A stretch of 64,000 nucleotides of DNA from a virus (taxonomy: Duplodnaviria > Caudoviricetes), in IMG/VR virus record IMGVR_UViG_3300031088_000782, positions 245,535 through 309,534 of that record, one strand, 5' to 3'. The notes beneath the pieces are model-generated. The model had not been told where the DNA came from. It worked only from the letters and a program-made list of their open reading frames with translations, and did no database searches. Below are positions 6,126-60,414 of this stretch, piece by piece (the first letter of the stretch is position 1; each line of letters begins with the position of its first letter). Position numbers and translations under genes: made by a program.

Positions 6126-6253
6126 ATTCTTAAAACTCATTCTCTAACGGCATTCAAAAACGCCGCATAAAACCTTGCTTATTTCAGGTATAAAAAGGTT
6201 ATTTTTAAAGGGATTTTCTAAAAACCTTATTTTCCCTATCCCGGTACTAAAAA
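6126..6253 (+). repeat. Degenerate copy A of dispersed ~120-bp repeat
   Basis: GCATAAAACC core, then GATTTTC..AAAACC.T.TTTT...TATC.C.GTA.T.AAA aligned by eye with copy C. Confidence 0.6.
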
Positions 6254-6305
6254 CAGAAAAATTTCTCTCAAAATTCATTATGGAACTTTCAGCAAAATAA
6301 ATTCT

Positions 6306-7940
6306 TCAATTGTCCATTTCATTTTCAAGCATCAAAGGAAGCATCAGAACAGGATTGATCTCAGCGTCAAAAAGATCACTGTCCAGAGCATTATGCCATT
6401 CTTGGAAGCTCGGGAAAGTTTCAATAGATAAAATATACATCATATTAAAAAATTCAACACATGATTTAAACCATTCATCACTGTTATCTTTAGACAAAAT
6501 TTTAATAAAAATATCCAAACTATTATCAATATTGCTTGCCATGCTTCCAAAAACAACATTCTTCATATTTTCTTTACTCTGATAATTTAAAATAAAATCA
6601 TCTTTAAAGCTCATATCTTTTCTATTAGAGTAGTTAACATAAGAAAAGCTAATAGTTTTGTCATCATTTATCTTCTGTTTTTTAATACTGACGAAATTAT
6701 AAAGAAAAACAAGATTAAATACATTATAAAGATCCTCAGCAGAAACACAGTCCTTCTTTCTATATATCTCTTTCAGAAATCTCACAGCTAAAAAAGAATA
6801 ATTCTCATCATGAAAATAATCAAGATCGTGCTTTTTAAAATATTTATTAAACTTGTTATAGATCTCTTTCAATTCAGAAATAACCTTCTCTTTATTTAAA
6901 TCTGCATCAAAATACATCAAAGCCCACACAGCGTGCCTAGTCCAGTCAAAATGAGAACTGTAACTACCGCGCTCAAAGAAATCAAACGCAAACATCTCCT
7001 TACTAGAAAGATAAATACTCGAATCAACATACATATGTTCAACCATTTCAATAAAACTATCAAACATATTATTATCTTCTTTATTTTCGTATGCATCTAC
7101 ACGACTACGAAACCAAACAATCTCTTCATAAGCTTTCTCATTAAAACGAGAAACGGCTTTATCCAAATCAATACGAGAAAGTTCAGAAAATGATTCACAA
7201 AACTTTAACAAAAAATTTCGTGAATAATTACTATCTGCAGGCTTAAACCCATAACCAATATAACGACTCAAACGCTCAAGAGAAGAAGTAATAAAATAAA
7301 AGCCATCTGCATTTTCTTTTGAGAGATTTGGAACAAGAAGCCGATTATTCAAATGATCATAATAATCTTTGTAATAGACACAAGAATAAGATTTTTTCGA
7401 ATCTTCTACATAATCAACAGTAAAGTTTTCGCCAACAAAATCTTTGTCAATGATTCCTTTAACCAAAGCGAACTGAGTGACAGTATAATCAAAATCTGAA
7501 AGTATAGCCTCCGGAGATCCAAAATTTTTGCGCACCAAATCAATTGTCACATTATAAAAATAATCATAGAACCCAATAGAATTTTCCGTGTCATATTTTT
7601 TCTCAAAACCAGGTCTTTCACTAAATAATTTAACAGCATCATTGAAATCCTCTTCGCTCTCAAAGAAAACATCAATATCCTTAATAGCTCTACTTGTCAA
7701 ATAATCCTTAAAAACGCCTCCAGCAATAAAACCTTTATGCCCATCAAGAATGCTCTCAGCAAAAGCACTCACAAACTTCTGCAAATCTTCTTCTTTATCA
7801 TTATCTGTTGTAGCATTATCGGTGTCGGTGTTTCGTTCTACAAGAATTTCAGAGTTATCTTCAGAAATTACTGAAGTACTGAAAGAACAATTCGCATTCA
7901 CAACAACAGAATTCACTCCATAAGACAAGATAGCCTCCAC
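6306..7940 (-). CDS. Nucleotidyltransferase, poly(A) polymerase/CCA-adding head-like, with long C-terminal extension
   Basis: FIAGGVFKD, KDIDVFF, TIDLV, ILSDFDYTVTQFA (GG...DxD and FDxT motifs). Confidence 0.65.
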   Translation of the reverse strand: MEAILSYGVNSVVVNANCSFSTSVISEDNSEILVERNTDTDNATTDNDKEEDLQKFVSAFAESILDGHKGFIAGGVFKDYLTSRAIKDIDVFFESEEDFNDAVKLFSERPGFEKKYDTENSIGFYDYFYNVTIDLVRKNFGSPEAILSDFDYTVTQFALVKGIIDKDFVGENFTVDYVEDSKKSYSCVYYKDYYDHLNNRLLVPNLSKENADGFYFITSSLERLSRYIGYGFKPADSNYSRNFLLKFCESFSELSRIDLDKAVSRFNEKAYEEIVWFRSRVDAYENKEDNNMFDSFIEMVEHMYVDSSIYLSSKEMFAFDFFERGSYSSHFDWTRHAVWALMYFDADLNKEKVISELKEIYNKFNKYFKKHDLDYFHDENYSFLAVRFLKEIYRKKDCVSAEDLYNVFNLVFLYNFVSIKKQKINDDKTISFSYVNYSNRKDMSFKDDFILNYQSKENMKNVVFGSMASNIDNSLDIFIKILSKDNSDEWFKSCVEFFNMMYILSIETFPSFQEWHNALDSDLFDAEINPVLMLPLMLENEMDN

Positions 7941-8090
7941 AATTTCTAAAAATATCTCACAAAAACTTATACAAAAACAATCCTATCATAGAACACAATC
8001 AAAGTCAATGACAGTATTCCCAACTTAATCATTTATCCTTTTGATTGTATTCTTGAACAAACTATCATTTCAACAAATAATAAAAATAGA

Positions 8091-8134
8091 AAAGTCCATA
8101 AGGTATATTATTCGTTATATACCTTATGGACTTT
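8091..8134. terminator. 18-bp IR
   Basis: Downstream of pilT-like gene. Confidence 0.75.
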
Positions 8135-8150
8135 ATTTTTCTAAAAACAT

Positions 8151-9875
8151 TTAACCAAGTTTTTTCAACAATTCGTTAAAACGGATAATGCTTGTGGCTT
8201 GACGGCGAGCAGCGTCTACCTCACATCTATCCTCAGAAACAGCCCTCACCAGAGCATGTTCCATTGTAATCTCACGATCTATCTGATACTGTTTGATCCC
8301 CTCAATGTCAGCATGAAGGATCATTCGTGAAACTTCTTCATCAACATTAAGAATTTCACGAACAGCAAATCTTGACTCGCCATCCTTCGACTGCAATAGA
8401 ACCTGATTAGCAAAACCACGAACATTCTCTGACAATGAACCAAGAATTCGAATCTGATCATCTCCCTGATACAAAGAACGAATACGGTTTACAGTAGCCG
8501 GGGCTGAATTAGTGTGCATAGTCGAAATAGCCAAATGGCCTGTCTCAGCAGCTCTCAACAATTCATTAACCTCAGTCTGATTCCTAACCTCACCAATCAT
8601 TATAATGTCTGGTGCCTGACGCATAGCACTCGTCAAAGCGCCAGCAAAGGTTCGGGTATCTCTACCAACCTCACGTTGAGTAATCAATGCCTTACCCTCT
8701 GTTCCGTACATGAACTCAACAGGTCTCTCAACCGTAATAATCTTACAAGCCCTGTCCATCTGAATCTTATGTATCAAAGAAGCCAAAGTGCTCGATTTTC
8801 CAGTTCCCGTTGGCCCATTCATCATGACCAAACCATTCGGCAAATCACACCAATCAATCAAATCTTGCTCAACACCCAAATCTTCAGGCATAGGAATGAT
8901 GTTACTGATAATACGGAACACCATAGCAAAATCTCCACCATTAGCCTTCAACACAGACAAACGCAAACGTCTCCCCTGATACTTTCCCTTCTTTACGACA
9001 TAAGAAGCATCCAATTCAAGATCCGTAGCAAAATCAGATTGCGCAACATGTGAAGTAATATTTGTGAAAATTCTCTGCACAATAGTAGCAGGAATAATAC
9101 CAAAATCACTCACACGTCGAATGTCACCTAAAACAGTATAAGCAATATAATCATTCGGAGAAATATGAATATCCGAAGCCTTCAAATCAATTCCAAAACC
9201 AATAATCGCATCAATATCAAACCCAGAAAACTCATCCTCAAAATCATCCTCACTCAAATCATAAGCACCAGAGAAAGAATCCTCACTCTCATCCCCATTA
9301 AAAGCAGCATCTAAAATAGAATCAACATCATCCGAAACGGGATCATCACTATCATGCTCATCAATAGTATTCAAAACATTCTCAAACGAATCAAACTGAG
9401 CAGTGTCCTCAATACTATCATCTTCATCAATGTCTAAATCAGTATGAGAATCATAATCAGAATTTTCATAACCTTCATCAAACTCTTCATCAACAGAATC
9501 GTAAGAGCGAGAACGGTAATGTGAATCATAATCATCCTCATTGCCATTCACATCAACATAAAAATCAGGAATACTATGAGCAGATTCTTCGTATTCTCCA
9601 TGCCCCTCATCTTTGACAACATACACATCCTCAACACCAGGCAAAGCATCATCCTCGATCTCATAACCAATAAGATCTTCATTCGGATTACCCTCAATCA
9701 AATCACGAGAATGCTCAAAAGTTCCAGTAGACAAATTGCTCACATCAACATCAAGAGACATCAGATCAAAACTATCCTCATACTCTTCCTCCTCATCAGA
9801 ATCATCTAACAAAGGATTCACAACATCATCCTCATCGTCCAATAAAGGATTCGAGTCATCATTCAGATCATCCAT
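8151..9875 (-). CDS. pilT: PilT/PilU-like type IV pilus ATPase with ~215-aa acidic N-terminal extension
   Basis: ASDIHI, GPTGTGKSST, AMRQAPDIIMIGEVR, AETGHLAISTMHTNSA; RBS AGGAGAG upstream. Confidence 0.8.
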   Translation of the reverse strand: MDDLNDDSNPLLDDEDDVVNPLLDDSDEEEEYEDSFDLMSLDVDVSNLSTGTFEHSRDLIEGNPNEDLIGYEIEDDALPGVEDVYVVKDEGHGEYEESAHSIPDFYVDVNGNEDDYDSHYRSRSYDSVDEEFDEGYENSDYDSHTDLDIDEDDSIEDTAQFDSFENVLNTIDEHDSDDPVSDDVDSILDAAFNGDESEDSFSGAYDLSEDDFEDEFSGFDIDAIIGFGIDLKASDIHISPNDYIAYTVLGDIRRVSDFGIIPATIVQRIFTNITSHVAQSDFATDLELDASYVVKKGKYQGRRLRLSVLKANGGDFAMVFRIISNIIPMPEDLGVEQDLIDWCDLPNGLVMMNGPTGTGKSSTLASLIHKIQMDRACKIITVERPVEFMYGTEGKALITQREVGRDTRTFAGALTSAMRQAPDIIMIGEVRNQTEVNELLRAAETGHLAISTMHTNSAPATVNRIRSLYQGDDQIRILGSLSENVRGFANQVLLQSKDGESRFAVREILNVDEEVSRMILHADIEGIKQYQIDREITMEHALVRAVSEDRCEVDAARRQATSIIRFNELLKKLG

Positions 9876-12202: not shown

Positions 12203-12565
12203 CAACAAACACCACCAAACAACATCAAAGGAACAATACATTACATATAAGCAAACATAACAAAACACTCATAATAAGACACAAATAAATATCAAGGACA
12301 AGAAAAAATTAAAAATAAGACCATTTAAAGAAGCTTTAAAAACCCTTACCTAAGCACAAAAAGATAAAAACAATCCCCTTTAACATAATAAAACGCCAAG
12401 AGAAACCCGCAAATAACGAAAAAGAAGAAAAAGTAACATGAAGTTACTATTAACAACAAACCATCCTCTACTGTTATTAGCTTTATATACATAGGTATAA
12501 AGAAAGCCTTCAAAAACCCCGTAGCCTAACCATGCCATAGGAACGTGGGTCGTGGTGTCACCCTT

Positions 12566-12817
12566 GTCCGCTACGCGGACGCAACTATTGTTCAAGCGCA
12601 GGGCGCTTTCTCAGATAGTTGCCCGAACGCCTGGGGGCGTCCGGAGGGTGCCAGTTTGTCGCTGACGCGCCAAACCTGATACGGCAATGCTGACGCATCA
12701 CCGTATCAGCCACTCGGTCGGGGAGTGGAGTGTTGTTTGTGAGTGCGTTGTTACTTACGTTCACAAACTTGCGGTTCGGGTTTGATAAATGTTGCAAAAG
12801 GGTTTGCTAAACATTTG
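12566..12817. other. Cluster of GC-rich hairpins in non-coding island
   Basis: GTCCGC-tac-GCGGAC (12566-80); CTGATACGG..ATGC-tgac-GCAT..CCGTATCAG (12676-12709); GTTTGTGA/TCACAAAC (12735-68); AAATGTT/AACATTT (~12788-12817). Confidence 0.7.
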
Positions 12818-13359
12818 AGAAAGGAGACAAGGTAGAAGGTCCGAGGAAAGAGAAGAGTTGAAGAAAGAACGTAGGTGTGCGCTACACTGTTAAGGTAGCG
12901 GTTCAAAAGTCAGGACAGGTCAGGGTCATGGGTGTGCGGAACACTACGCCACAACATAGGGTTAAGAAAAGGAATGGGTGTGCGCTACACAGCAAAGGCA
13001 AGGGTTGGGGGTTGTAAGTGTGCGGAACACTCCAACAGCGGTAGCGGAACGAATGGCGCGTCAGCGACAGGCGTGACATGAACGTGCCGCGTCAGCGGGA
13101 CGTTCAGCGAAAAGCGCGTCAGCGGTTTGAGTCGGCTTGGTGGGGAGGGGAAGTTGAGGAACGTGGGTGTGCGAAACACTGTGGTTAGGTCACGATGAAA
13201 ACGAAACGTGAGTGGAACGGAAAGCACCGCGTCAGCGGGGATTGTAGTGGAACGTGAGTGTAGTTGGAATGGGACTTGGTTGCAGTCACCGTGAAAAGCT
13301 GGGAACGGATCATGCTCAGGTTATAGTCACCGGGAATGGTTGAGGGGTGAGCGTCAGCG
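12660..13359. repeat. GCGTCAGC(G) motif: five + copies and two inverted copies
   Basis: + at 13058, 13089, 13116, 13229, 13351; inverted (GCTGACGC) at 12661 and 12689. Confidence 0.85.
12875..13179 (+). repeat. Five copies of GTGTGCG(CT/GA/AA)ACAC, iteron/operator-like
   Basis: At 12875, 12932, 12978, 13018, 13167; dyad GTGT-N5-ACAC. Confidence 0.85.
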
Positions 13360-13646
13360 AACTTGTGTTTGCGAAGTGTTGGTCAAGTGGTTTGTGAATG
13401 GTGGGTATGGTTAGTGTGGTGGTTGGGTTCGGGTGTTTGTTGAGTGTTCGTGTTGGGTGTGGGGAAAGTGTGAAAAAATTGTTGGGAAAATTTGTTGCTG
13501 AAATGTTAGGTTGTATTTCTTTTTTTTTATTTTTTATTTTTCTTTTTTGTCAAGGGTTTTGTGGGGTTGCTGTTTTTGGTGGTTTGGGGTAGACTGGTGT
13601 TGGTGCTTGTTTTTAGTTGGTCTATTTTTTGGAGTTGTTTGTTGTG

Positions 13647-13836
13647 ATGTTTCGTAAATATTTTGGTGAACATAATTTTGTAAATGATTCAAATGATGTT
13701 GGAGCCTGGTGAGGTTGTGTCGTTGCGTGTTGGTTCTCGTCCTTTGGATGTGGATCGTTATTATGGTGGTGAGTTTGGTTTTGAAGTTGAGGTTGAGCCT
13801 GGCAGTGAGATGACTGTTGTGCGTTTTCCTGATTAA
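13647..13836 (+). pseudogene. Frameshifted paralog of 35693..35905
   Basis: MFRKYFGEHNFVNDSNDV in one frame, LEPGEVVSLRVGSRPLDVDRYYGGEFGFEVEV in another; 14 nt missing relative to paralog. Confidence 0.7.
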
Positions 13837-13858
13837 TTTCTTATGAGAGGTTGTTTTT

Positions 13859-14170
13859 ATGTTGAGTGATAAGTTTGAGAGTAATGTCGTTAGTGTTGGT
13901 TTGCCTGTTGAATATTGGGTTGATGTTGTGGATGAAATTTTTAGGAATTATTCGCCTACTACAACTATTGCTGGTAAGGATGATTATAAGTTTCGGGATA
14001 CTGTGTTTTATGATATGAATGATTTTTATACTTATTTATTGTTGAATTTTTTCGGTGAGGTAGATCTTTTGCATCCTGGTGAGGTTAATCTTGTTGAGTT
14101 TATCAATGGTGATTCGAGAACTTTGGGTGAGATTATTGAATATTGGGACTCTGTTAAGAGGGTTATTTAG
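13859..14170 (+). CDS. hypothetical protein
   Basis: 103 aa ORF, RBS GAGAGG, followed by IR. Confidence 0.65.
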   Translation: MLSDKFESNVVSVGLPVEYWVDVVDEIFRNYSPTTTIAGKDDYKFRDTVFYDMNDFYTYLLLNFFGEVDLLHPGEVNLVEFINGDSRTLGEIIEYWDSVKRVI

Positions 14171-14298
14171 TGGTGTGAATCTTGCGTAGTGTAAATGCTT
14201 GCTGTATAGTTTGTGAGTGAATATGTTGCTCATATTTCAGGTACATTTAAGTCTCCTATGAAAAATGTTGATGTTAAATAATTTTTATATTTTTTAAC

Positions 14299-14339
14299 AA
14301 GTGGGAGTGACATCAGTATATTTGATGTCATTCCCACTT
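14299..14339. terminator. 17-bp IR
   Basis: aagtgggagtgacatca/tgatgtcattcccactt. Confidence 0.7.
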
Positions 14340-14470
14340 TTTTCATGTTGTATATTTTTATTTACTTGTTTGGCAATGGTTGACAAATTCTGTTTGAATA
14401 GTGTATGATTAATAGTGTCGTAAATTTTTAATATTGTTTATTGTGTTTATCTAACTCTTGGAGGGTTATT

Positions 14471-14632
14471 GTGGCTTTGGATTATTATGATCGTGATGAG
14501 GCTCTTGCGGTGATTAATCAGTGGGTGCTGGATGGTTCTCGTATTGAGTCTTGGGGTGCTGATAATTCTTGTGAGTGGATTAATCTTCGTGGTTCTGATG
14601 GCTGTCTTGAGGATTTTGTTATCTATTTTTGA
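14471..14632 (+). CDS. small hypothetical protein
   Basis: GGAGGG RBS before GTG; promoter at 14380. Confidence 0.55.
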   Translation: MALDYYDRDEALAVINQWVLDGSRIESWGADNSCEWINLRGSDGCLEDFVIYF

Positions 14633-14753
14633 GCCAATGAACAATAGGTGTGTTGTCTGTTGTGAATCCTGTCAGGTTGCGTTAGGTGTTGTTTAGACAT
14701 TGAACCTGTTGGTTTCATAATTTTCTAGCGTTTGCGAAGCGGGGTGTGTTGTC

Positions 14754-15098
14754 TTGTTGATTCGTGATTTGATGTTTGGGGATTTTGTTTCTTATGGCAT
14801 GAATCTTGTGTGCTCTTTTTGCCGAAGGGAGTTTTATTGGGTTTGCAATGATGCTCATTCTAATTCGATTTACAACCGTCCGTCTTATTGTTCTAATAGA
14901 CATAGGGAAGAGGCTCGTTTGTTGAGACGTAGAGTTGAACAAAGCGGTGGGGATGTTTGTCCGTTCCCAGGAAAGAAGAGCTTTGTTGAGCGAGATGATG
15001 CTTTGGCTGTGATTGTAGCAAATCATTATGGGGATGATGGGTTGTTCCCGTATTTGTGTGTTTGTGGTTTGTGGCACAATGGGCATAGAATCAAATAA
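14754..15098 (+). CDS. Cys/His-rich putative zinc-binding phage protein
   Basis: CSFC, CPFPGKKSF...YLCVCGLWHNGH. Confidence 0.6.
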   Translation: MLIRDLMFGDFVSYGMNLVCSFCRREFYWVCNDAHSNSIYNRPSYCSNRHREEARLLRRRVEQSGGDVCPFPGKKSFVERDDALAVIVANHYGDDGLFPYLCVCGLWHNGHRIK

Positions 15099-15311
15099 TT
15101 TTTTGTGGTAGCAGTGATTTCGGCTTGGTGTTTGCAACAGTATTTTCCTATGCTATGATTAAGTGTGGCAAAAGAGTTGAGAATAAAGGTTTGAGAGTTA
15201 CTTGGCTTGTCTATCTGGTTGAGAAAATTTGTGAAAGAGGTTGCGAAAGATACTGTAGTAGTGTAGGATGGACAGTAGAAACAAAGAAAACAGTAGGTAT
15301 CATTAGCAAAG

Positions 15312-15518
15312 GTGAATGAAATGTTTAAAGCGGCTTGTGCGTTCTCTCGTGGAGATAAAATGGTTTCGCGCGGGATTAGTGACAAGGTTGAGATTCTGAC
15401 TGTGACTCATTCGTCTTATGGTTCAGAGGAAACTCAAGATAAGGTGTGGATTGAGTTTGGCAATGAACGTCGATTGTTTGATTATGATGCTCGACTTGAA
15501 TACGTTGAGAGTGAATAA
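15312..15518 (+). CDS. small hypothetical protein
   Basis: 68 aa ORF followed by IR at 15540. Confidence 0.5.
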   Translation: MNEMFKAACAFSRGDKMVSRGISDKVEILTVTHSSYGSEETQDKVWIEFGNERRLFDYDARLEYVESE

Positions 15519-15539
15519 GATTCTTAAATAGTTCAATAA

Positions 15540-15584
15540 CAATTAGAGCACCTATCTCCCGTTAAGAAATAGGTGCTCTAATTG
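15540..15584. terminator. 16-bp IR
   Basis: caattagagcacctat/ataggtgctctaattg. Confidence 0.7.
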
Positions 15585-15737
15585 TTTCTTTTGTTGCAAC
15601 GGAAATTTCTCGTTCTCACTTTCTTGACATATTGTTTAATGTAATATAATATGTATTCTACATGTTCGTTGATTTATTATTGAATGTTTGTTAATGCAGA
15701 AATGCCTATTTGAGAAAATTTTAAAAGGAGATTGAAA

Positions 15738-16106
15738 ATGGGATTGTTTACCGATAAGAGCAAAGAAGCAAATAGCAACAAAAACGCAGAAGTCTATTGT
15801 TTTGACATTACTATGATGAATGGGGATATTTTCTGTATTATTCATTCTCTTGAATTTGATCGCGGAATATGGCTAGAAGTCAATAATCATTTTGCCTATG
15901 CTGTCGGGAACGAAGATCTTTGGGATAAGAAGAACAATGTTGTTGATCGCAATAATTTCATTAGTTATGATAGGCAGATTAAACTGATTTGTGCTTCAGG
16001 AAAGGCAGACATTCTTATCAACCCTAAAGCTATTGCTTATGTCGGGGAAGTTTCAATTGGAGAAACAAGTAATTCTGAACTATCCCGAGCGCGAAACAAC
16101 AGGTAA
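15738..16106 (+). CDS. hypothetical protein, paralog of 21296..21565
   Basis: RBS AAGGAG; SYDRQIKLICASG...INPKAI. Confidence 0.65.
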   Translation: MGLFTDKSKEANSNKNAEVYCFDITMMNGDIFCIIHSLEFDRGIWLEVNNHFAYAVGNEDLWDKKNNVVDRNNFISYDRQIKLICASGKADILINPKAIAYVGEVSIGETSNSELSRARNNR

Positions 16107-16297
16107 GAAAAAAGGCGAAATTGTTCAACCCGATTATACTATTGGAGGATATGCTAAAAACTTTCCAATGAGTAGTGTTGGTTATGGATTATTTCTGGAT
16201 TAAGTGCTTTACGTTTGAGTGCTGTTGTTGTTGAAAATTGTTTGGCTGTTTGAAAAGTAATTTAGTTTGAGAATGGTTGTATATTTGAGGGGTTGCT

Positions 16298-16614
16298 GTG
16301 AGTGCTGTTGCTGATTCTCAGTCAAGCAGTCGAATGGATCGTGACAATTTTTCTTTGGTGACTGTGTTCTATTATGTAGGGGTTCCGCTTACGACGGTGT
16401 GTGTGCTGTTTTGAGCGGGTATTTTATTGCGCTGGGGAATGTGTCAGTTGGTATAGGGTTAGTTGTTTCTGCGGCTGTTTTTGGTTCTGTGGGTGCTGTC
16501 ATTGTGCGCAACATGGTTGAACAGATTTCTTTCACTGTTCCGAAAATTATGTTTCAAGTCTTAGCACTGATTGTTGCAGTGTTGGTTATTCGTGTTGTTC
16601 ATGCTGGAATTTAA
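16298..16614 (+). pseudogene. Membrane protein split by frameshift in (GT)4G repeat at 16397-16405
   Basis: GAGGGG RBS + GTG 16298 frame stops after VCVLF; removing one GT fuses it to hydrophobic ORF 16399..16614 (104 aa). Confidence 0.55.
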
Positions 16615-16634
16615 AAATAATTTTGGTGAATGTA

Positions 16635-16663
16635 TTGACTTGTTTTTGTTGATGTTATATACT
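16635..16663 (+). promoter_or_regulatory. sigma70/SigA-type promoter
   Basis: TTGACT-17-TATACT. Confidence 0.7.
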
Positions 16664-16721
16664 GTGATGAGTTTGTTCATTAATGTATTTTTAATTTTTG
16701 ATTGTTAGTAAGAATTTGTAA

Positions 16722-17051
16722 ATGTATGTGAAAGGAAACAATGTTATGGCTAGTGTAAAAGATTTGGATTTTAGTGATGTTGATTTGCTTGTTCTTGTTG
16801 ATCGTGTAGAGGGCGGTTGGAATGCTGAGGTGAGCGAGGGCTTTACGGGGTCTTCGACTGATGATGGCGGGGACACTTTTGGCGAGTTGTTGAATAATGT
16901 TTTCGCTTGGGCTGGGATTAGTGGCTTTGAGTTCGGGGTTGATGACTCTGTTGATGATGTTCGTAGTGCTGTTAAGCGTTGGAATGATGAAGCAAATGAG
17001 CTAGGAATTGATTTTACTGTTCGAATTTATACTGGTTTTGGAATTGTTTAA
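16722..17051 (+). CDS. hypothetical acidic protein
   Basis: ORF downstream of promoter 16635; likely start MASVKD after GAAAGGA. Confidence 0.65.
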   Translation: MYVKGNNVMASVKDLDFSDVDLLVLVDRVEGGWNAEVSEGFTGSSTDDGGDTFGELLNNVFAWAGISGFEFGVDDSVDDVRSAVKRWNDEANELGIDFTVRIYTGFGIV

Positions 17052-17112
17052 TTAGTTCTATGATTTGACAATGTTGAGCTGGTAAAGTTGTGTAAAGTTG
17101 TTGATTAATGAT

Positions 17113-17167
17113 GAATAAAGAATGACCTCATGCATTGCACTGTTGCCCATGAGGTCATTCTTTATTC
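17113..17167. terminator. 20-bp IR between convergent genes
   Basis: gaataaagaatgacctcatg/catgaggtcattctttattc. Confidence 0.75.
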
Positions 17168-17173
17168 AGTTTT

Positions 17174-17365
17174 TTAATCTTCAATAAGGTAAGTGAGTTG
17201 GGGGAGGATTATTCCGTTTGCGTTGTTGCTTGTTCGGTAGTAAGTGTAAACAAATCCTTCTGGGCTATCTTCGTGCTTTTGGGTGCCGGTGATGATTGCG
17301 TCTGTAATCGTCATTCCGTGAGGACGAACGATTACGGGGGTTCCGGGCTTGATTGCGGTGTTCAT
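17174..17365 (-). CDS. small hypothetical protein
   Basis: MNTAIKPGTPVIVRP...; ends next to 20-bp IR at 17113. Confidence 0.55.
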   Translation of the reverse strand: MNTAIKPGTPVIVRPHGMTITDAIITGTQKHEDSPEGFVYTYYRTSNNANGIILPQLTYLIED

Positions 17366-17614
17366 TTCTCGCTTCTTTCTATGTTTCGCTGTTGCGTTTG
17401 TCTTATCTGTATTGAGTATATAACCTTTTCTCAACTTTCGCAAGGTTCTCGTGAAAATTTTTCTAGTTGATTTGGTTGAGCGATTGATGGGTTCGAACTT
17501 TGGCGAAAATTGAAAAATTGTTTGAATCGTTGTTGACGCGAGAGGAATTTTCGTGCTATTGTGTTTTTGTAAGGTTCGTTAATTAAAACATTGAGAACAA
17601 AAAGGTTGAATAAA

Positions 17615-17956
17615 ATGTCTACTGTCTATAATTACGATAATGTTGTCAAGGTTGCTGAATCTATTGTAAAGAATGTCAAGGCTGAGATTGCCAAAGTTGC
17701 TAATTCAATGAATCGACGTGTTGAGATGGGCGATTATTACATGTCGGACCTTGTTAGTGGATTGGTTGTTCTTGAAAGCGCTCTGTGCTATCTGGAATCT
17801 GTTAGTCGCCACTTTGAGAGGGGTTTTATTAGCCAACTTTCACCGCTGGACGCTCTTGATTCTCTTATTGTGAATGACGATATGCTCAAAGGATATTCTC
17901 TGTATTCTCGTGAGATTATGCAAGCACTGAAGAATGCTGAAACTGTAACTGTATAA
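17615..17956 (+). CDS. hypothetical protein
   Basis: ORF after promoter 17533, RBS AAGG, IR after. Confidence 0.65.
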   Translation: MSTVYNYDNVVKVAESIVKNVKAEIAKVANSMNRRVEMGDYYMSDLVSGLVVLESALCYLESVSRHFERGFISQLSPLDALDSLIVNDDMLKGYSLYSREIMQALKNAETVTV

Positions 17957-18068
17957 TTCGAATGTGTTTAGCGAATGATTGCTGAATGATTTGCAAACAA
18001 AAGTGAGTGTGTCGGGATTACTTTTCTGATATACTCACTTTTTCGTTGTTAAGTGAGGAAAGATTGAG

Positions 18069-18477
18069 ATGAAGATGTTCAAACAGTTTTTCAAGGATAT
18101 TCCGGGTGAGTGATATGGTAGATGTTAAGTTGTGTGTGTTGGAAGTTGTTGACGTTTTAAATTACAATGATGCTCGCTCTTATGTTCTTCATCAACTTGT
18201 CGCTGAGAGACTAGAAGAAAAACCAGCTGGAGTTTTATTGATTGCTTTCACCAATTTGCGTTCTTGGGGCAGGAAGCCTGGGTTGGCGAGATCTCGTTTG
18301 TATATGAATGAGTGGGAAGAGACACTGGCTGATTTGTCTGCTACTTTGAATGTTCTGCGAGGCTTGGATGAGCACTCTTGTGTTCTTCGTTCTTGTTCTC
18401 CTTTTGCTGGGGTAGTCTCTGAAGCAGAGAGGGTTCAGCTCTTGAATGAGTTTAGGAAGTGTTGGTCAAATTTATGA
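18069..18477 (+). CDS. hypothetical protein, possibly frameshifted near 18102-18106
   Basis: RBS+ATG at 18069 (MKMFKQFFKDIP) is one base out of frame with ORF 18106..18477 across ccggg. Confidence 0.5.
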
Positions 18478-18584
18478 ATGGAGTTCGGCTGTTCTCTGTT
18501 GCGATTGTGGTTTAAGAATGGATTGTTGATGAATGTGTGAGAGAATGGCAAAAAAGAAGAATTGAGGGTTGTATTTTAAAGTTG

Positions 18585-18613
18585 TTGACGTGTGGGATTT
18601 TGTGTTGTATGAT
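18585..18613 (+). promoter_or_regulatory. sigma70/SigA-type promoter
   Basis: TTGACG-17-TATGAT. Confidence 0.65.
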
Positions 18614-18661
18614 TGAGTTAAGAGCAAGATAAACGATACATTAAATAAGAAGGAACATATA

Positions 18662-18841
18662 ATGGCTACTTATGCTGATAATTACGAGAATGCTTTTCCT
18701 TACGATTCTGATATTGTTGTTTTGGAGCACGCTGATAGCACTGCACGGAGTTCTTTTAGGGTTTGTAATCTTTGTGGGGCGTTGGTTTTGGATTCGCTTC
18801 ATGTTACTCATGTGAGGAATCAGCATCCTGGAAATGAGTGA
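18662..18841 (+). CDS. 59-aa putative zinc finger protein (not in ORF track)
   Basis: AAGGA RBS; ...RVCNLCGALVLDSLHVTHVRNQHP; promoter 18585, IR after. Confidence 0.65.
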   Translation: MATYADNYENAFPYDSDIVVLEHADSTARSSFRVCNLCGALVLDSLHVTHVRNQHPGNE

Positions 18842-19122
18842 AAGTAGTTAATAAGAGAAAGAAGCTATCCTGTTGAGGGTGGCTTCTTTTTTCTTGTTTT
18901 ACACAATTTTTATCATTTGAATAATAATGATAAAAATTGTGTAAATTATTGTAAAATAAATGAATATGATTATTGTAAATGATAAAACTTTTGAATACTT
19001 TAATGAGATAAATAGTTCAATATTCTAAAGAATTGTTTTGATTTTCTTTAATGTTTTAAAATGTTTTGGTAAAAATATAATTAAGTATTTTACAGTGAAA
19101 GAATTGGGGTGCTACGATTGCT

Positions 19123-19653
19123 ATGAAGGCAAATGATATAGTGAATGCTATTAGGAACAAACACGGGGGCAAAGCTGCTATTGTTCCAGAATTGACCATT
19201 GAAGATAGGTATTACTATCAGAGCATGATTCGAAGAGATCCTCGTTTTGAAGATTACGCAAATGATAGTAGCATTGTGGATGAAAATTATCAAGTAGACG
19301 AAACATATGATCTTGCTAATGGTAAGTATTCTAGACGAATTGACTTACTTATGTGTGAAGCTCAAAAATGGACTGCTATAGAAATTAAAGTATCTAGATC
19401 TGATTTTTTCCGTGACACAGAAGAGAAAAGACAAACGTGGAAAAAACATACACACAGGTTCATATATGCGACTCCACAGGGGCTTGTTAACATTGAAGAA
19501 ATACCTGAAGGGTGTGGATGGTGGGAAATAACTCCTACGGGTATGATAATCGTGAGCAAACGTGCTAAAGTTAACAAAGATAGGACTGACTTCCCTGATT
19601 CATTTATGAGGACTGTCTTTTGGCGTTTGGCAACAACAAGTCCATTGATGTGA
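19123..19653 (+). CDS. MmcB-like PD-(D/E)XK nuclease/DNA repair protein
   Basis: RRIDLL, AIEIKVSRSDFFRD...K, FIYATP.GL...PEGCG. Confidence 0.7.
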   Translation: MKANDIVNAIRNKHGGKAAIVPELTIEDRYYYQSMIRRDPRFEDYANDSSIVDENYQVDETYDLANGKYSRRIDLLMCEAQKWTAIEIKVSRSDFFRDTEEKRQTWKKHTHRFIYATPQGLVNIEEIPEGCGWWEITPTGMIIVSKRAKVNKDRTDFPDSFMRTVFWRLATTSPLM

Positions 19654-19784
19654 AGCACGAAATATAATAGAATATGTTTAAGTAAACTAATTAGTTCTTA
19701 AAAAAAAATGAAAAAATTTATAAATATAAATTAAAATTCATTAAGAATTGTTTTTCTTTTATGTGGAGGTAGAGAATTAATAAT

Positions 19785-20034
19785 ATGATTGAGTATGATT
19801 CTTTTAATATGACATAGATCCTTGTGGAATGATAACTGTTTTTTTGAGAAAGAATTTTGTGGGTTTTTATCTTGGCAGGATGAGACTGTTGTACATGTTT
19901 GGGTGAAAGAGTTGTACAGAAGGAAAGGAATCGCTACTCATATGTTTGAATTAGCTCAAAGCATTTGTGTCTCTTTGAAACATTCGGCACGTTTAACAAA
20001 TGATGGGTTAATATTCCGAAATAGTTTTTATTGA
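19785..20034 (+). pseudogene. GNAT-like acetyltransferase, probably frameshifted at 5' end
   Basis: VHVWVKELYRRKGIATHMFE (R/KxxGxA motif A) in ORF 19822..20034; GGAGG RBS+ATG at 19785 is out of frame. Confidence 0.5.
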
Positions 20035-20654
20035 TCATTGTTGATTTTATAAAATTTTTTGGTTGTATTAAAAAACAATTCAGGGTGAGAATGGTTTATC
20101 AATTTAGGGGATTTTGCTGTGGGTGAGATTAAGTTTGCTGATGTTGATTCTGAAAGTGACGATACTGCTGAGAGGGATGATGGTTTGAGTCGTTCGGATA
20201 CGGTATTGATGGTTGTTGAATCTTCTTTGGTTTTTGAATTGTTGTATATCTTGGTTAATCTTGATTGGGTTTGCGAATTTTTATTTTCTGTGTGATTGCT
20301 ATTTTTTCGTGGGGTAGCTGTCATGAATTGAATATTCCATGACACGATTCTTGCTGTCTTTGGAGCAGTTGATTAGATACATGCGTTTTCTGTGAGGCTG
20401 TGAGCGGCTTTTGAGAGCTGTGCGAGTATTTGAGTGTTTGTTGAGTATTGTCGGCTTTTTGGGGCTGCTCTGGCTTTCTCTATAACATGTGAATTTGTTT
20501 GTGGCTTTCACATTACGATTGACTGTGTTTTTTGCGTTAAGGATAGGGACAATTTTACGTTTGGTTGATAGGTTGAAAGATATGCTTTTATTTGAGTGTT
20601 AACACTTTTAGAGTCATGTTGATTTAAGAATGAAAAAGACTGAACAAAAACAAT

Positions 20655-20700
20655 AAGGAGAATGTCTGTCAGCTGTTGTGTTGTGACAGACATTCTCCTT
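20655..20700. terminator. 17-bp IR
   Basis: aaggagaatgtctgtca/tgacagacattctcctt. Confidence 0.7.
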
Positions 20701-20722
20701 TGGGGTTTGGTCTTGTGTTTTG

Positions 20723-21010
20723 TCAAAGGCGGAAATAGTCTGCCATTCGTTGTGCTACTTCATAGGGGTCGAATCGCGGGCTATTGTATTCGCTAATAAG
20801 GGTGCGATAAGTGCGGTCTTCAAGAGCAATAAGGTTCATTGTGTATTCAAGCTGCCCTAGTGATTCTGAGAGTTTAGCTTGGTTGATAAATGTTGCGGGA
20901 GCGTAGCTTGTCCATTCATTCACATAAATTTCGGCGGATTCTCGTGCTTTGCTAAGCGCGTCGAAGAGGGCGATTCTCTGTGTCTTGTTGAGTTCGTATC
21001 GCTGTGGCAT
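20723..21010 (-). CDS. hypothetical protein
   Basis: 95 aa, AAGGA RBS, followed on - strand by 17-bp IR at 20655. Confidence 0.6.
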   Translation of the reverse strand: MPQRYELNKTQRIALFDALSKARESAEIYVNEWTSYAPATFINQAKLSESLGQLEYTMNLIALEDRTYRTLISEYNSPRFDPYEVAQRMADYFRL

Positions 21011-21295
21011 TTTTCTTATCCTTGTCTTGGATTGTTCTGTTCAATATTTTTATCTATACTCTCATCTTAATTTACTGTTGAGGCTTTGTCAATCGTTGTT
21101 GAATATTGTTCGTAAAAGGTTCTGAATATAGACTTTAAGATTAAACAAGGTTCATGTTGAGATATGCTTTATGTTGAACATGGTGATGTGGGAGACTTTT
21201 GATCTTCGTTTGGGTCGTTGACTTTGCTCATGTATAGTGTTATTCTTGTTCTGTTGTTAATTATCAGTTAGATTTCATTTATAGAAGATTTTGTA

Positions 21296-21565
21296 ATGTC
21301 TGTTTTTGGTAACAGCAAGTCAGGTAATGTTGATGATAGTGTTGTTGTGGATGCTGAATTTTTGCGGCTACACTGAGCAATGGTAATGACGATCTTATTG
21401 ATGAGATTTATGGCGTTGTTTTTTATGAGGAACTATTTTATCATGATCGTCCTATTAAACTAGTATATCCTTCGGGGGAGTTTTTTTGATTTTGTAAATC
21501 CGTCTCATATTGTTTCTTTTTCTGGTCCTTATAGGATTACTGTGAATGTTCCTGCTGTTGACTGA
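21296..21565 (+). pseudogene. Paralog of 15738..16106 with compensating -1/+1 indels in T runs
   Basis: Reconstructed MSVFGNSKSG...FYHDRPIKLVYPSG...VNPSHI; shifts at T5 21359-63 and T7 21481-87. Confidence 0.7.
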
Positions 21566-21593
21566 TACGAACTACTAAATCCTTATTTAACGA

Positions 21594-21622
21594 TTGACTT
21601 TTACCCTGTCTTGTTATACAAT
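21594..21622 (+). promoter_or_regulatory. sigma70/SigA-type promoter
   Basis: TTGACT-17-TACAAT. Confidence 0.65.
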
Positions 21623-21642
21623 GGATAATAAAAGATTAATGA

Positions 21643-21885
21643 ATGATTGTCAAACTTGATGAAGATTGGATAAAGATTATGGAAAAGCGTAATGTTGTCG
21701 GACTTGAAAGTTTTCGTTTCGCTGTTGTCAATGCGGAAAACAACAATGTTGTGTCTCTCCATAAATCAGCAAAAGAAGCTGAGTGGCAAGCTGAGTCAGA
21801 GAATGAATATTTTGCGCAAAATGCTATTAAAGCAAAGTTTGAGGCTGTTGAAATTTTAGACAAAATTGGATATAAGCGTTATTGA
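21643..21885 (+). CDS. hypothetical protein
   Basis: 80 aa ORF after promoter 21594. Confidence 0.6.
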   Translation: MIVKLDEDWIKIMEKRNVVGLESFRFAVVNAENNNVVSLHKSAKEAEWQAESENEYFAQNAIKAKFEAVEILDKIGYKRY

Positions 21886-21952
21886 AATTGACTGTGATTG
21901 TCATGATTCTTATTTGTAAGGTAAATAAATCGTGAAGAGAAAAGAGATAAAG

Positions 21953-22225: not shown

Positions 22226-22226
22226 A

Positions 22227-22278: not shown

Positions 22279-22282
22279 CTGT

Positions 22283-23739: not shown

Positions 23740-23760
23740 ATCATAACGCTTAAACACTAA

Positions 23761-32124: not shown

Positions 32125-32177
32125 CAACATGAAAGTATGAATCGTCAGAATCGTTTGTGAGAGCAAAAACCGCTTGC

Positions 32178-32290
32178 TTCAATACGGTGGCTCTCAAAAT
32201 AGGGTTTTTCGAAAATCTTCTCCAAGACAGCCAAATCGCCACCTGAAAACACGGCATAAAACCTAATGTTTTCAGGTGGCGTTCTCATTT
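32178..32290 (-). repeat. Copy B of dispersed repeat; perfect 14-bp IR (32237-50/32268-81) around 17-bp core
   Basis: Flanks match reverse complement of copy C. Confidence 0.85.
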
Positions 32291-32471
32291 CAATTTTAAG
32301 CCTTTTTGAGAATGCCGATTTTTCTCTCATTTCGCACAGATTTTCGATGAGGAGTGTGTTACGCAATGCCCTCATCATCTACTGAAAACAACATATTATC
32401 TCATTCTTGTTGAACTTTTGATAAGCTGAAAAGTAATATAAATTAGAAAGATTCGAGAGAATGGAAAATCA

Positions 32472-58697: not shown

Positions 58698-59303
58698 GTG
58701 TTGAAAATGATTAAAGGTTCTTATGATTTTTTATTTAAAAACAATAAAACGTACTTAACTTTAAATAACGAGATAAATCGACTTAATGAATGTTCAGATA
58801 AGCTTGACACAAGAGTCGCTATTTTTGCGACAATTGCTGTGATTAGCGGTATTATCTCTTTTTGCTCATTTGTTGGATTTATTGCGGGGCTAGGAATGAG
58901 CGGCAACGGAATTTTTGGTGTTGTTTCTCTTGTGATGGTGCCTATATTTTTGTCCTCTCTTTTTGTTTGTCTTTTCAGTAGAGCAAAAAACAGTTCGCTT
59001 TGGAATGAAAAACTCCGCACTTTACGTGATCAGAGACATGAAATGTTTGTTGAAAAAGTTAGTAAAGACCTGAAAGAGCAGTATGGGGCTGTGTTCTTTA
59101 ACAGTGAAGTTCATCCCAGTCATTCCAAGTATGAGATTAAGTTTGACAATGGGAAGCATTATATGGCAAGGGTTTTCTACACCGATGGAAAAATGATTGT
59201 CGAACTTTTGAATGAGAAGCACTACATGAAGCCAACAGGTGTTTCTACCGACGAAAAGCCTAAGACGGATTTTGATGTTATTGATGGATTGAAGAATGTT
59301 TGA
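58698..59303 (+). CDS. 2-TM membrane protein, possibly related to 44426/62665
   Basis: Two TM helices then EQYG and soluble tail. Confidence 0.65.
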   Translation: MLKMIKGSYDFLFKNNKTYLTLNNEINRLNECSDKLDTRVAIFATIAVISGIISFCSFVGFIAGLGMSGNGIFGVVSLVMVPIFLSSLFVCLFSRAKNSSLWNEKLRTLRDQRHEMFVEKVSKDLKEQYGAVFFNSEVHPSHSKYEIKFDNGKHYMARVFYTDGKMIVELLNEKHYMKPTGVSTDEKPKTDFDVIDGLKNV

Positions 59304-59893: not shown

Positions 59894-59906
59894 TTTAAAT
59901 AACCAG

Positions 59907-59935
59907 TTGACATTCGGGTCTTTCTGTTATAGGAT
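59907..59935 (+). promoter_or_regulatory. sigma70/SigA-type promoter
   Basis: TTGACA-17-TAGGAT. Confidence 0.6.
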
Positions 59936-59983
59936 GAAGTCAATAAGTTCGTTCATAGTTTTAAACCTTTTAAGGAGATTGTT

Positions 59984-60223
59984 TTGTCTAAGTCAATTAC
60001 CACTCAGGTTCCTGCTTTTGAACATGATTGCGATGAGTGTGTTTTTCTTGGTCGTTTTCTTGACAACGATCTGTATTTCTGTGATTTTGGTGTTGATTAC
60101 ACTGTGATTGCACGTCATTCTTCTGAACCTGCTGATTACATTAGTGGCGAACTTCTTGTTCCTTATTACGAGGAGCTTGCAATGGCTCGCAAAAAGGCCG
60201 TAGATGCTGGGCTGATTGTTTGA
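59984..60223 (+). CDS. conserved phage-type Cys/His protein
   Basis: PAFEHDCDECVFLG...DLYFC...VIAR. Confidence 0.7.
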   Translation: MSKSITTQVPAFEHDCDECVFLGRFLDNDLYFCDFGVDYTVIARHSSEPADYISGELLVPYYEELAMARKKAVDAGLIV

Positions 60224-60277
60224 TTTGAGTAGGTTTTGAATTGTTGGAAACAAACTCTAAAATGCCGGAAATTTCCA

Positions 60278-60414
60278 TATCCTAATATTCTTTAAAACAG
60301 CAATGAGAACGCACATTGAAAACATAGCATAAAACCTAATGTTTTCAGGGTGCGTTTTTCAAGTTTTGACAAAGATTTTCCGAAAACCCTGTTTTGAGTA
60401 TCACCGTATTGAAA
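60278..60414 (+). repeat. Copy C of dispersed repeat; 14/16 IR (60308-23/60341-56) around 17-bp core
   Basis: aatgagaacgc...gcataaaacctaatgttttcagg...gaaaaccctgttttgag...caccgtattgaa. Confidence 0.85.

What the first reader, a model, noticed from the sequence alone, without database searches (positions are those of the whole stretch)
6126..60414. Dispersed ~120-bp repeat whose 17-bp core is inverted between copies
Seen: copy B (32178-32290) matches the reverse complement of copy C (about 60301-60414) along both flanks (ttcaatacggtg..ctcaaaa.agggtttt..gaaaatctt...cctgaaaac [core] gttttca...cgttctcatt). The core between the IR arms reads the same on the + strand in both (acggcataaaacctaat vs atagcataaaacctaat), so it is flipped relative to the flanks. 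B has a perfect 14-bp IR and C a 14/16 IR. A degenerate copy A (6126-6253) has C's arrangement. All are intergenic. Inference: a recombination-site-like or hairpin element with a micro-invertible spacer, possibly a switch, a resolution site or a MITE-like unit. No recombinase is visible in the window.
Basis: partly seen in the sequence, partly recalled or inferred. Interest (0 to 1): 0.7.

Follow-up and report, generated by a model that had tools for sequence, protein, structure and literature searches.

The report
Intergenic hairpin repeat with flipping loop
A roughly 200-base non-coding repeat, present seven times between the genes of a giant plasmid- or phage-like element, has a central DNA hairpin whose 17-base loop has turned over several times in evolution; this is most likely a passive copying accident already known from other hairpins, not a genetic switch.

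Summary
Copies B and C share about 100 bases of flank in reverse-complement orientation, yet the hairpin loop reads the same on the + strand. Copy A has C's layout.

The family is larger than reported. It has seven copies of about 170-215 bp in the 309.5-kb record, and orthologous copies in related elements. Relative to the flanks, four copies carry the loop one way and three the other.

At two orthologous sites the flanks of distant relatives stay collinear while the loop is reverse-complemented. A tree built on the flanks needs about four flips.

In a close lineage (about 86-93% DNA identity across these intergenic regions), all four comparable copies keep the same orientation. The record holds no tyrosine recombinase, serine recombinase or Y1 transposase gene. 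The flipped piece is only 13-17 bp.

Best reading: this is a dispersed intergenic cassette. Its hairpin belongs to the element's general class of long-stem, large-loop hairpins at gene ends, and probably acts as a terminator. The loop flips rarely, through the inverted repeat itself (template switching). A programmed switch is not supported.

This scan has reported the same loop-flipping hairpin-repeat phenomenon before on other DNA. I rate it a new member of a known kind, of low to moderate interest.

The parts
32133..32346 (+). Copy B of the repeat (flanks on + strand, loop 'sense' relative to flanks: B-type)
   Evidence: nhmmer E 1.5e-48; alignments A1, A3, A6
32237..32281 (.). Hairpin of copy B: perfect 14-15-bp arms (32237-32251 / 32267-32281) around the 17-nt loop 32251-32267 (ACGGCATAAAACCTAAT)
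   Evidence: RNA MFE -26.4 kcal/mol
60246..60460 (-). Copy C (flanks on - strand, loop inverted relative to flanks: C-type)
   Evidence: nhmmer E 3.5e-47; BLAST flank hit on the minus strand and hairpin hit on the plus strand
60308..60356 (.). Hairpin of copy C: 16/18 arms around the loop 60324-60340 (ATAGCATAAAACCTAAT); AT/AT extends the stem, leaving 13 asymmetric nt
   Evidence: (I23)
6083..6297 (-). Copy A (flanks on - strand, C-type, stem degenerate), between convergent genes; loop 6162-6178
   Evidence: nhmmer E 6.8e-40; orthologue L038 is 93% identical with the same orientation

Best explanation
This is a dispersed non-coding cassette of about 170-215 bp. It has seven copies in this 309.5-kb giant conjugative or phage-like element, and it is kept at orthologous intergenic sites in related elements.

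Layout: a box reading roughly ACAGAATG.ATTTT.AG; then an ~85-nt module (TTTCAATACGGTGATACTCAAAA ... GGTTTTT.GAAAATC); then an A-rich spacer; then a 13-17-bp-stem hairpin with a 13-17-nt loop; then GCGTT and a second copy of the box or a T-rich tail.

Shown:
- The hairpin stem covaries.
- The loop lies in either orientation relative to the flanks (4 versus 3 copies).
- It has flipped at two orthologous sites while the flanks stayed collinear.
- About four flips are needed on the flank tree.
- Orientation is stable over short evolutionary distances.
- No recombinase gene lies in the record.

Inferred, mechanism: the flips are rare, recombinase-independent events caused by the inverted repeat itself. 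The candidates are an intra-hairpin template switch during replication, a switch to another copy aligned through the palindromic arms, or recombination between the arms. This is the mechanism invoked for minute inversions in plastid DNA and for loop inversions in RNA-gene hairpins.

Inferred, function: the hairpin serves as the gene-end structure at transcription-unit boundaries, probably a terminator or a stabiliser of the RNA 3' end that can work in both directions. A flip leaves the stem and its A-rich and T-rich borders unchanged, so it is close to neutral.
For: 1. Reality and size of the family. BLAST and nhmmer find seven copies at E 1e-21 to 1e-48.

2. Flips among paralogues. B, the 212-kb, 127-kb and 82-kb copies are one type; C, A and the 58-kb copy are the other.

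3. Flips at orthologous sites.
- Upstream of the Rad50/SbcC-like gene, the own copy, L029 and L033 share one orientation. L030/L031/L032 carry the reverse complement, with collinear flanks and compensating stem changes.
- At the 82-kb locus, the own copy and L040 share one orientation and L039 has the other.

4. Recurrence. The flank-only tree needs 4 changes (bootstrap range 4-5, at least 2 forced by strongly supported branches). Orientation is no more clustered than in shuffles (232 of 500).

5. The rate is slow. Zero of four loci flipped in the close lineage SRR20303025. The sequence is identical in three samples of the L030 lineage. The source-sample contig runs through B without any difference.

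6. No enzyme. PF00589, PF00239 and PF01797 are all absent from the record, while the control genomes give hits.

7. The hairpin is maintained. Ten of 14 stem pairs show changes on both sides: 24 such cells against 12.1 +/- 2.6 in shuffles (0 of 500), and the slid-partner controls are far lower.

8. The loop is not specially constrained. After correcting for flips, loop identity is 0.57-0.64, against 0.54-0.58 for flanks and arms.

9. Context for a gene-end role.
- The window holds dozens of intergenic hairpins with 17-24-bp stems and 7-24-nt loops.
- Canonical terminators are rare: 3 found against 6.4 expected.
- Every copy lies 45-130 nt after a + strand gene end and ahead of the next gene's promoter-like boxes.
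- At the 58-kb locus it is the only hairpin in the gap.
- A relative lacking the element (L036) has an ordinary terminator hairpin followed by a T run at that position.

10. The mechanism is documented elsewhere. See loop inversion by template switching (PMC8794818), inversion of the spacer between inverted repeats (PMC8604942), and hairpin-facilitated 4-50-bp inversions in plastomes, Kelchner & Wendel 1996, as reviewed in PMC12371153.
Against: - No read-level data were available, only assembled contigs. A low-frequency mixture of orientations cannot be excluded.
- The terminator role is inferred from position and from the genome's hairpin style. There is no U-tract directly after the stem, the simple terminator scan does not call the hairpin, and no RNA data exist.
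- A pure terminator does not explain the conserved ~85-nt left module or the duplicated ACAGAATG box. The cassette must do, or have done, something more, such as binding a protein or being mobilised.
- In the own genome 6 of 7 loops point the same way on the + strand, where nearly all genes lie. That could hint at polarity. But one relative lineage has both sampled loops pointing the other way, and 6 of 7 is not significant.
- The record is a 309.5-kb part of a ~681-kb contig. A recombinase could be encoded outside it or by the host.
Confidence: 0.7

Rival explanations
1. Programmed micro-inverton. A recombinase flips the 17-bp core to toggle a regulatory state, such as a terminator or antiterminator, or a promoter in the loop.
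For: Inverted repeats bracket an asymmetric core. Both orientations exist. This genome does place promoter-like boxes in hairpin loops elsewhere: TGTTATAAT sits in the loop at genome 55868-55922 and in its orthologue in L030.
Against: - No tyrosine recombinase, serine recombinase or Y1 gene lies in the record.
- A 13-17-bp segment is far below what known invertases turn.
- Orientation is fixed at 4 of 4 loci in a close lineage and across samples.
- No sigma-70-type -10 box or GATATT box is conserved in the loop.
- The promoter-bearing loop at 55868 keeps its orientation in relatives, unlike this family's loop.
Confidence: 0.05
2. Nucleoprotein site of the BIME/RIP or Correia kind. The cassette binds element or host DNA-architecture proteins (HU/IHF-like proteins, gyrase, or a partition or condensation factor). 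The hairpin arms and central box are read as duplex or cruciform DNA, so core orientation does not matter.
For: - Several conserved blocks besides the hairpin: a duplicated ACAGAATG.ATTTT.AG box, TTTCAATACGGTGATACTCAAAA, and the small palindrome TTTTCGAAAA.
- Copies are spread at 23-85-kb intervals around the record.
- The element encodes two HU-like proteins.
- The loop sequence remains recognisable in either orientation.
Against: - No protein partner has been identified.
- Neither the box nor the loop-plus-arm motif is enriched outside the seven copies.
- There is no good IHF consensus (by eye, not a tool test).
- The loop is no more conserved than the rest of the element.
Confidence: 0.12
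3. Strand-specific single-strand signal: a priming or ssDNA-promoter site on the transferred or lagging strand, or an RNA hairpin read by a protein. Its polarity matters. Loop flips are selected to restore polarity after the cassette lands backwards.
For: - In the own genome all three + oriented cassettes are B-type, and three of four - oriented ones are flipped. As a result 6 of 7 loops read GCATAAAACCTAAT on the + strand.
- The genome is strongly polar: nearly all genes are on +, and GC skew is positive throughout.
- The element carries conjugation genes: VirB4-like AAA_10, T2SSE ATPases and Replic_Relax.
Against: - Six of 7 is not significant (Fisher p about 0.11, my calculation).
- The L030/L040 lineage has both sampled loops on the opposite strand.
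- Sense and antisense strands show no consistent folding asymmetry from G-U pairs.
- The own 82-kb copy is also on the other strand.
Confidence: 0.08
4. Non-autonomous mobile element (MITE-like). The flips merely reflect insertion of a palindromic sub-unit in either orientation.
For: - The copies are dispersed and lie in both orientations relative to genes.
- The element is absent from the Rad50 locus of more distant relatives.
- Copies cluster by genome rather than by locus.
Against: - No consistent terminal inverted repeats or target-site duplications.
- No transposase candidate.
- Flips occur at orthologous sites with both flanks of the cassette intact. The loop turned in place.
Confidence: 0.05

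Closest known systems
Hairpin-associated small ('minute') inversions of plastid non-coding DNA (Kelchner & Wendel 1996; Catalano et al. 2009; reviewed in PMC12371153)
   Same: Short inverted repeats directly abut a 4-50-bp spacer that is found reverse-complemented among relatives, recurrently and homoplasiously, usually in gene-end stem-loops. No recombinase is involved.
   Different: Here it occurs in a multi-copy dispersed repeat of a giant bacterial mobile element rather than in single-copy plastid spacers. The copies also homogenise within a genome.
Template-switch mutations in quasi-palindromes, loop or spacer inversion (Ripley model; PMC8794818, PMC8604942, PMC5941160)
   Same: One event can invert a loop and keep or restore perfect stem pairing. 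This explains the compensated stems and flipped loops seen here.
   Different: Most documented loop inversions are 4-8 nt (PMC8794818). Here the inverted piece is 13-17 nt and the flips recur within one family. The mechanism is inferred here, not observed.
PeSLs, the composite promoter-terminator cassettes of T4-like phages (PMC2839356, PMC4122927)
   Same: A repeated intergenic cassette with a stem-loop, scattered between genes of a large mobile genome, including variable regions.
   Different: No conserved sigma-70 promoter was found inside this cassette. It is longer, and loop flipping is not a described PeSL feature.
REP/BIME mosaics and Correia-type repeats of bacteria
   Same: Extragenic palindromic units combined with other conserved motifs, occurring in either orientation. 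A central asymmetric box lies between inverted arms.
   Different: No RAYT gene, no terminal inverted repeats, only seven copies, no sequence similarity, and no Rfam match.

Membership tests
Hairpin-mediated minute inversion / template-switch loop inversion | Inverted-repeat arms directly abut the inverted spacer, and spacer length is preserved | tested here: met
   13-17-bp arms with a 17-nt loop (18 nt in one copy) in all 13 sequences
Hairpin-mediated minute inversion / template-switch loop inversion | At an orthologous site the flanks stay collinear while the spacer is reverse-complemented | tested here: met
   Rad50-upstream locus: L030/31/32 against own, L029 and L033. 82-kb locus: L039 against own and L040.
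Hairpin-mediated minute inversion / template-switch loop inversion | Recurrent, homoplasious occurrence on the phylogeny | tested here: met
   Four changes on the flank tree, at least 2 forced by strongly supported branches
Hairpin-mediated minute inversion / template-switch loop inversion | Arises during replication without a recombinase | not testable with these tools
   Indirect only: no recombinase gene in the record
Site-specific invertible switch (inverton) | A dedicated invertase (tyrosine or serine recombinase) encoded nearby | tested here: not met
   PF00589 and PF00239: zero hits in the 309.5-kb record, with positive controls. The rest of the ~681-kb contig was not searched.
Site-specific invertible switch (inverton) | Both orientations coexist within one population | tested here: inconclusive
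   Only contigs could be laid, and the source contig is identical at B. Zero of four loci flipped in a close lineage.
Site-specific invertible switch (inverton) | An invertible segment that carries a directional signal (promoter) and is long enough for synapsis | tested here: not met
   The segment is 13-17 bp, and no conserved promoter box lies in the loop
REP/REPIN with RAYT | A cognate Y1 (RAYT) transposase gene | tested here: not met
   PF01797: zero hits
MITE (Correia/ERIC-like) | Terminal inverted repeats and target-site duplication | tested here: not met
   No terminal inverted repeat is shared by the copies. The ends carry a direct, family-wide box instead.
PeSL promoter-terminator cassette | A sigma-70 early promoter plus a stem-loop within one short conserved cassette | tested here: not met
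   The stem-loop is present, but no promoter-like site falls within 32133-32346
Canonical intrinsic terminator | A GC-rich stem with a 3-8-nt loop, followed at once by a T run | tested here: not met
   Not called by the scan. The loop is 13-17 nt and the T-rich tail is interrupted. The hairpin does match the genome's own long-stem, large-loop class.
Any Rfam RNA family | A covariance-model match | tested here: not met
   No match at gathering score in the window. No match at the copies with E up to 5.

The most novel reading that the evidence does not exclude
The hairpin may be a polar, strand-specific signal: an RNA loop read by an element protein, or an ssDNA priming or promoter site on the transferred strand of this conjugative giant. 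If so, loop flipping would be the route by which a cassette that landed backwards regains the right polarity. That would be selection exploiting template switching as a slow orientation-repair or phase-variation device.
Probability: 0.08. Interest if true: 0.6.

Novelty: new member of a known kind. Interest (0 to 1): 0.25.

Why it matters
This is a clean natural example of hairpin-loop inversions being recurrent in a giant mobile element of bacteria, as they are in plastid DNA. It has two practical consequences.

- Such flips create clusters of apparent point differences. They break alignments and assemblies at these sites, and they can be mistaken for switches or recombination sites.
- The cassette marks transcription-unit boundaries in a poorly understood group of giant conjugative or phage-like elements whose terminators are not of the textbook kind.

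It does not reveal a new mechanism.

Tried and rejected
- **Pattern scans.** A scan of IMG/VR for the hairpin core gave no hit. A scan of JGI metagenomes gave two chance matches without a hairpin.
- **Protein-guided IMG/VR scans.** Neighbours of B and C and the Rad50-like protein gave only unrelated or very distant loci. The relatives came from the protein collection and Logan assemblies instead.
- **Sequencing runs.** No RNA holder is listed. Three runs hold the stretch or part of it, all kept as contigs. Laying them gave no read-level information on mixed orientation. The only record listed across B is the source sample's own contig; for X2 the one listed piece nearby ends at 32119, just before the element, and most of its pieces were not shown.
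- **Whole Logan records of relatives.** These could not be searched.
- **Coding hypothesis for the left end.** The conserved stop codon and a 'QNRF*' frame suggested a coding end. Rejected: those frames are only 6-25 codons long.
- **Loop-to-flank pseudoknot (AAAACC with GGTTTT).** Rejected: the flank motif is kept in only some copies.
- **Promoter in the loop or in the right box (sigma-70, SPO1-late-like CGTTAGA...GATATT).** No conserved -10 partner.
- **G-U asymmetry to tell the transcribed strand.** No consistent difference.
- **RNAalifold on the whole cassette.** No consensus structure was predicted. The central helix had to be tested with an explicit structure.
- **Loop-plus-arm motif and ACAGAATG box elsewhere in the genome.** Not enriched.
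- **Loop flips in other hairpins between the own genome and L029.** None in 22 kb.


Full report
**1.

Copy B has a perfect 14-15-bp inverted repeat (window 32237-32251 / 32267-32281) around the loop ACGGCATAAAACCTAAT. Copy C has a 16/18 inverted repeat (60308-60325 / 60339-60356) around ATAGCATAAAACCTAAT.

Aligning B with the reverse complement of C and A shows shared flanks on both sides of the hairpin, while the loop columns disagree. A BLAST search of B against the whole record finds C twice. The flank matches on the minus strand (E 1.3e-10) and the hairpin on the plus strand (E 8.2e-10). Chance is excluded.

**2. Where the window sits**

The window is the last 64 kb of a 309,534-bp IMG/VR 'provirus' record with 35% G+C. 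Exact-protein look-ups show that the record is part of a contig of about 681 kb.

The gene content is that of a giant conjugation-type or phage-like element:
- a VirB4-like AAA_10 ATPase, ParA, T2SSE ATPases and a Replic_Relax protein;
- a Rad50/SbcC-like ATPase;
- in the syntenic loci of relatives, HU-like proteins, a sigma factor and a TrbL-like protein.

Nearly all genes lie on the + strand and GC skew is positive throughout. The best DNA holder is a phyllosphere metagenome.

**3. The family is larger and longer than reported**

A profile built from the copies finds seven members:

| Copy | Genome coordinates | Flank strand | Window coordinates |
|---|---|---|---|
| 58-kb | 58789-59005 | - | outside window |
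| 82-kb | 82145-82357 | - | outside window |
| 127-kb | 127153-127324 | + | outside window |
| 212-kb | 212280-212489 | + | outside window |
| A | 251617-251831 | - | 6083-6297 |
| B | 277667-277880 | + | 32133-32346 |
| C | 305780-305994 | - | 60246-60460 |

Oriented by their flanks, all members share one layout:
- a box reading roughly ACAGAATG.ATTTT.AG;
- the block TTTCAATACGGTGATACTCAAAA;
- a small palindrome around TTTTCGAAAA;
- an A-rich spacer;
- the hairpin;
- GCGTT followed by a second copy of the box. In the B/C/212-kb/82-kb subfamily this reads TCTCATT...TTTTAA instead.

No Rfam family matches.

**4. Loop orientation**

Relative to the flanks, B and the 212-kb, 127-kb and 82-kb copies read GCATAAAACCTAAT-like ('B-type'). 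C, A and the 58-kb copy read the reverse complement ('C-type').

Relatives were reached through homologues of the neighbouring Rad50-like protein, a Gad2-family protein and a 553-aa protein, and through cluster members.

- Upstream of the Rad50-like gene, the cassette is collinear in the own genome, L029 (96% protein identity), L033 (61%) and L030/L031/L032 (65%). The L030 group carries the loop reverse-complemented. The stems differ by compensated changes: cgctatacgaaaac, gccacccgaaaat and gcaccctgaaaag.
- At the 82-kb locus, the own copy and L040 are B-type and L039 is C-type.

A maximum-likelihood tree of the flank columns alone needs four orientation changes (bootstrap range 4-5, at least two forced by strongly supported branches). 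Orientation is no more clustered than random labels (232 of 500 shuffles). Copies also group by genome rather than by locus, which points to concerted evolution among copies.

**5. The flips are slow**

In the close lineage from sample SRR20303025 (about 86-93% DNA identity across these intergenic regions), the orthologues of the 58-kb, A, 212-kb and 127-kb copies all keep the own genome's orientation. The L030-type locus is the same in three samples.

The Logan contig of the source sample passes through B with no difference. Contigs cannot show rare variants, so this is weak evidence.

**6. No dedicated enzyme**

Profile searches of the six-frame translation of the record find no Phage_integrase, Resolvase or Y1_Tnp domain, while the control genomes give hits. 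The inverted piece is 13-17 bp, which is implausibly short for an invertase substrate (established knowledge, not tested here).

**7. What maintains the hairpin**

On a loop-normalised alignment of 13 hairpins:
- 10 of 14 stem pairs show changes on both sides;
- there are 24 such cells against 12.1 +/- 2.6 in shuffles (0 of 500);
- controls with the 3' partners slid by a few columns score far lower.

Template switching produces exactly such one-step compensations as well as loop inversions (PMC8794818; PMC5941160). The covariation therefore fits selection for pairing, or the mutational mechanism itself, or both.

After correcting for flips, the loop is about as conserved as the rest of the cassette: 0.57-0.64 identity against 0.54-0.58. 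There is no sign of a special constraint on the loop.

**8. Likely role**

Several observations point to a gene-end role.
- The window is full of intergenic hairpins with 17-24-bp stems and 7-24-nt loops.
- Textbook terminators are fewer than expected by chance: 3 found against 6.4.
- Every copy lies 45-130 nt downstream of a + strand gene end and upstream of the next gene's promoter-like boxes. Examples are TGTTATAAT right after the 212-kb copy, TTGAAC-17-TAATAT after B, and a conserved TTCGGTA.AAT box before the Rad50-like gene.
- At the 58-kb locus the cassette's hairpin is the only hairpin in the gap.
- A more distant relative without the cassette (L036) has an ordinary hairpin followed by a T run in the corresponding gap.
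- The hairpin is bordered by an A-rich tract on one side and a T-rich tract on the other, so it could act in either direction. That fits cassettes lying in both orientations relative to genes.

This is inference. No RNA data exist. It also does not explain the left module or the duplicated box, which suggest an additional protein-binding or mobility-related role.

A useful contrast is another hairpin of this genome (55868-55922), whose loop holds a TGTTATAAT box. It keeps its loop orientation in L029 and L030, as expected when a loop carries a directional signal.

**9. Polarity**

In the own genome 6 of 7 loops read the same way on the + strand. All three + oriented cassettes are B-type, and three of four - oriented ones are flipped. 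This is suggestive but not significant (about p = 0.11 by my Fisher calculation). It is contradicted by the L030/L040 lineage, where both sampled loops point the other way. Folding energies give no consistent sense/antisense asymmetry.

**10. Comparison with what is known**

- The behaviour matches hairpin-associated small inversions of plastid DNA (4-50 bp, recurrent; PMC12371153) and template-switch loop or spacer inversions (PMC8794818, PMC8604942).
- As a repeat, it resembles PeSL cassettes of T4-like phages (PMC2839356, PMC4122927) and REP/BIME or Correia-type elements. It fails their defining features: no internal sigma-70 promoter, no RAYT gene and no terminal inverted repeats.
- Earlier notes of this scan describe the same loop-flipping behaviour in unrelated hairpin repeats of other genomes. 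I did not test those here.

**11. Verdict**

The 'switch or recombination site' reading is not supported. The feature is a new member of a known kind and of modest interest. The one open point that could raise it is read-level evidence of mixed orientation or of strand polarity.

Noticed in passing
window 6306-7940 (-): The 544-aa protein next to copy A belongs to Pfam PF26128 (Gad2, an anti-Gabija family) according to the precomputed annotation of its homologues. My own Pfam scan found nothing for it.
   Followed up: partly
genome 55868-55922 (outside the window); L030:6802-6855: This long-stem hairpin has an extended -10-like box (TGTTATAAT) in its 23-28-nt loop. The stems covary, and the loop orientation is conserved between lineages that are 65% identical in the neighbouring protein. 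It looks like a hairpin with a promoter in its loop.
   Followed up: partly
whole record: Exact-protein look-ups place the window's proteins on contigs of 681,631-681,645 bp. The 309.5-kb 'provirus' record is therefore a cut-out of a much larger contig, and searches of the record do not cover the whole replicon.
   Followed up: no
L015:4819-5604 (genome 212819-213604, +): The 261-aa protein just downstream of the 212-kb copy gives a weak, sub-threshold match to the Rep origin-binding domain (PF01719, E 0.0088).
   Followed up: no
L033:1 (also L034:1 and L035:1): The L033 contig begins 23 nt before the hairpin, so that assembly breaks at the cassette. The L034 and L035 contigs also begin 130-180 nt upstream of the Rad50-like gene, but no cassette is visible in them. 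The L033 break may come from the repeat or the palindrome. It could hide mixed orientation.
   Followed up: no
genome 66145-66186; L033:5777-5816; L030:17053-17089: These are the orthologous hairpins after the HU-like gene. The stems are completely different but perfect. The A/T-only loop of L033 (TTTTTAATTT) looks like the reverse complement of the own loop (AATAAAAA). This may be another loop flip, but the sequence complexity is too low to call it.
   Followed up: no
window 12300-31000: This stretch has very low long-ORF coverage (0.23-0.30 in 20-kb bins) under every stop-codon reassignment tried. It consists of many short + strand units separated by long hairpins.
   Followed up: partly
window 36043-37074, 38917-40377, 60699-61223: Cargo genes in this region: a weak ADP-ribosyltransferase-like match (PF03496, below cut-off), a DUF2201_N metallopeptidase-like protein, and a pyrimidine-dimer DNA glycosylase (PF03013, E 3e-21) immediately downstream of copy C.
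   Followed up: no
genome 229689-229701: An isolated perfect 13-mer, ACCTAATGTTTTC (half the loop plus the right arm), with no hairpin or cassette around it. It is either chance or a remnant.
   Followed up: no
window 32158-32178 / 32309-32329: In copy B only, a 21-nt, 76% complementary outer inverted repeat brackets the cassette. A segment at 32312-32324 is complementary to the left arm plus the start of the loop. Neither is shared by other copies.
   Followed up: no
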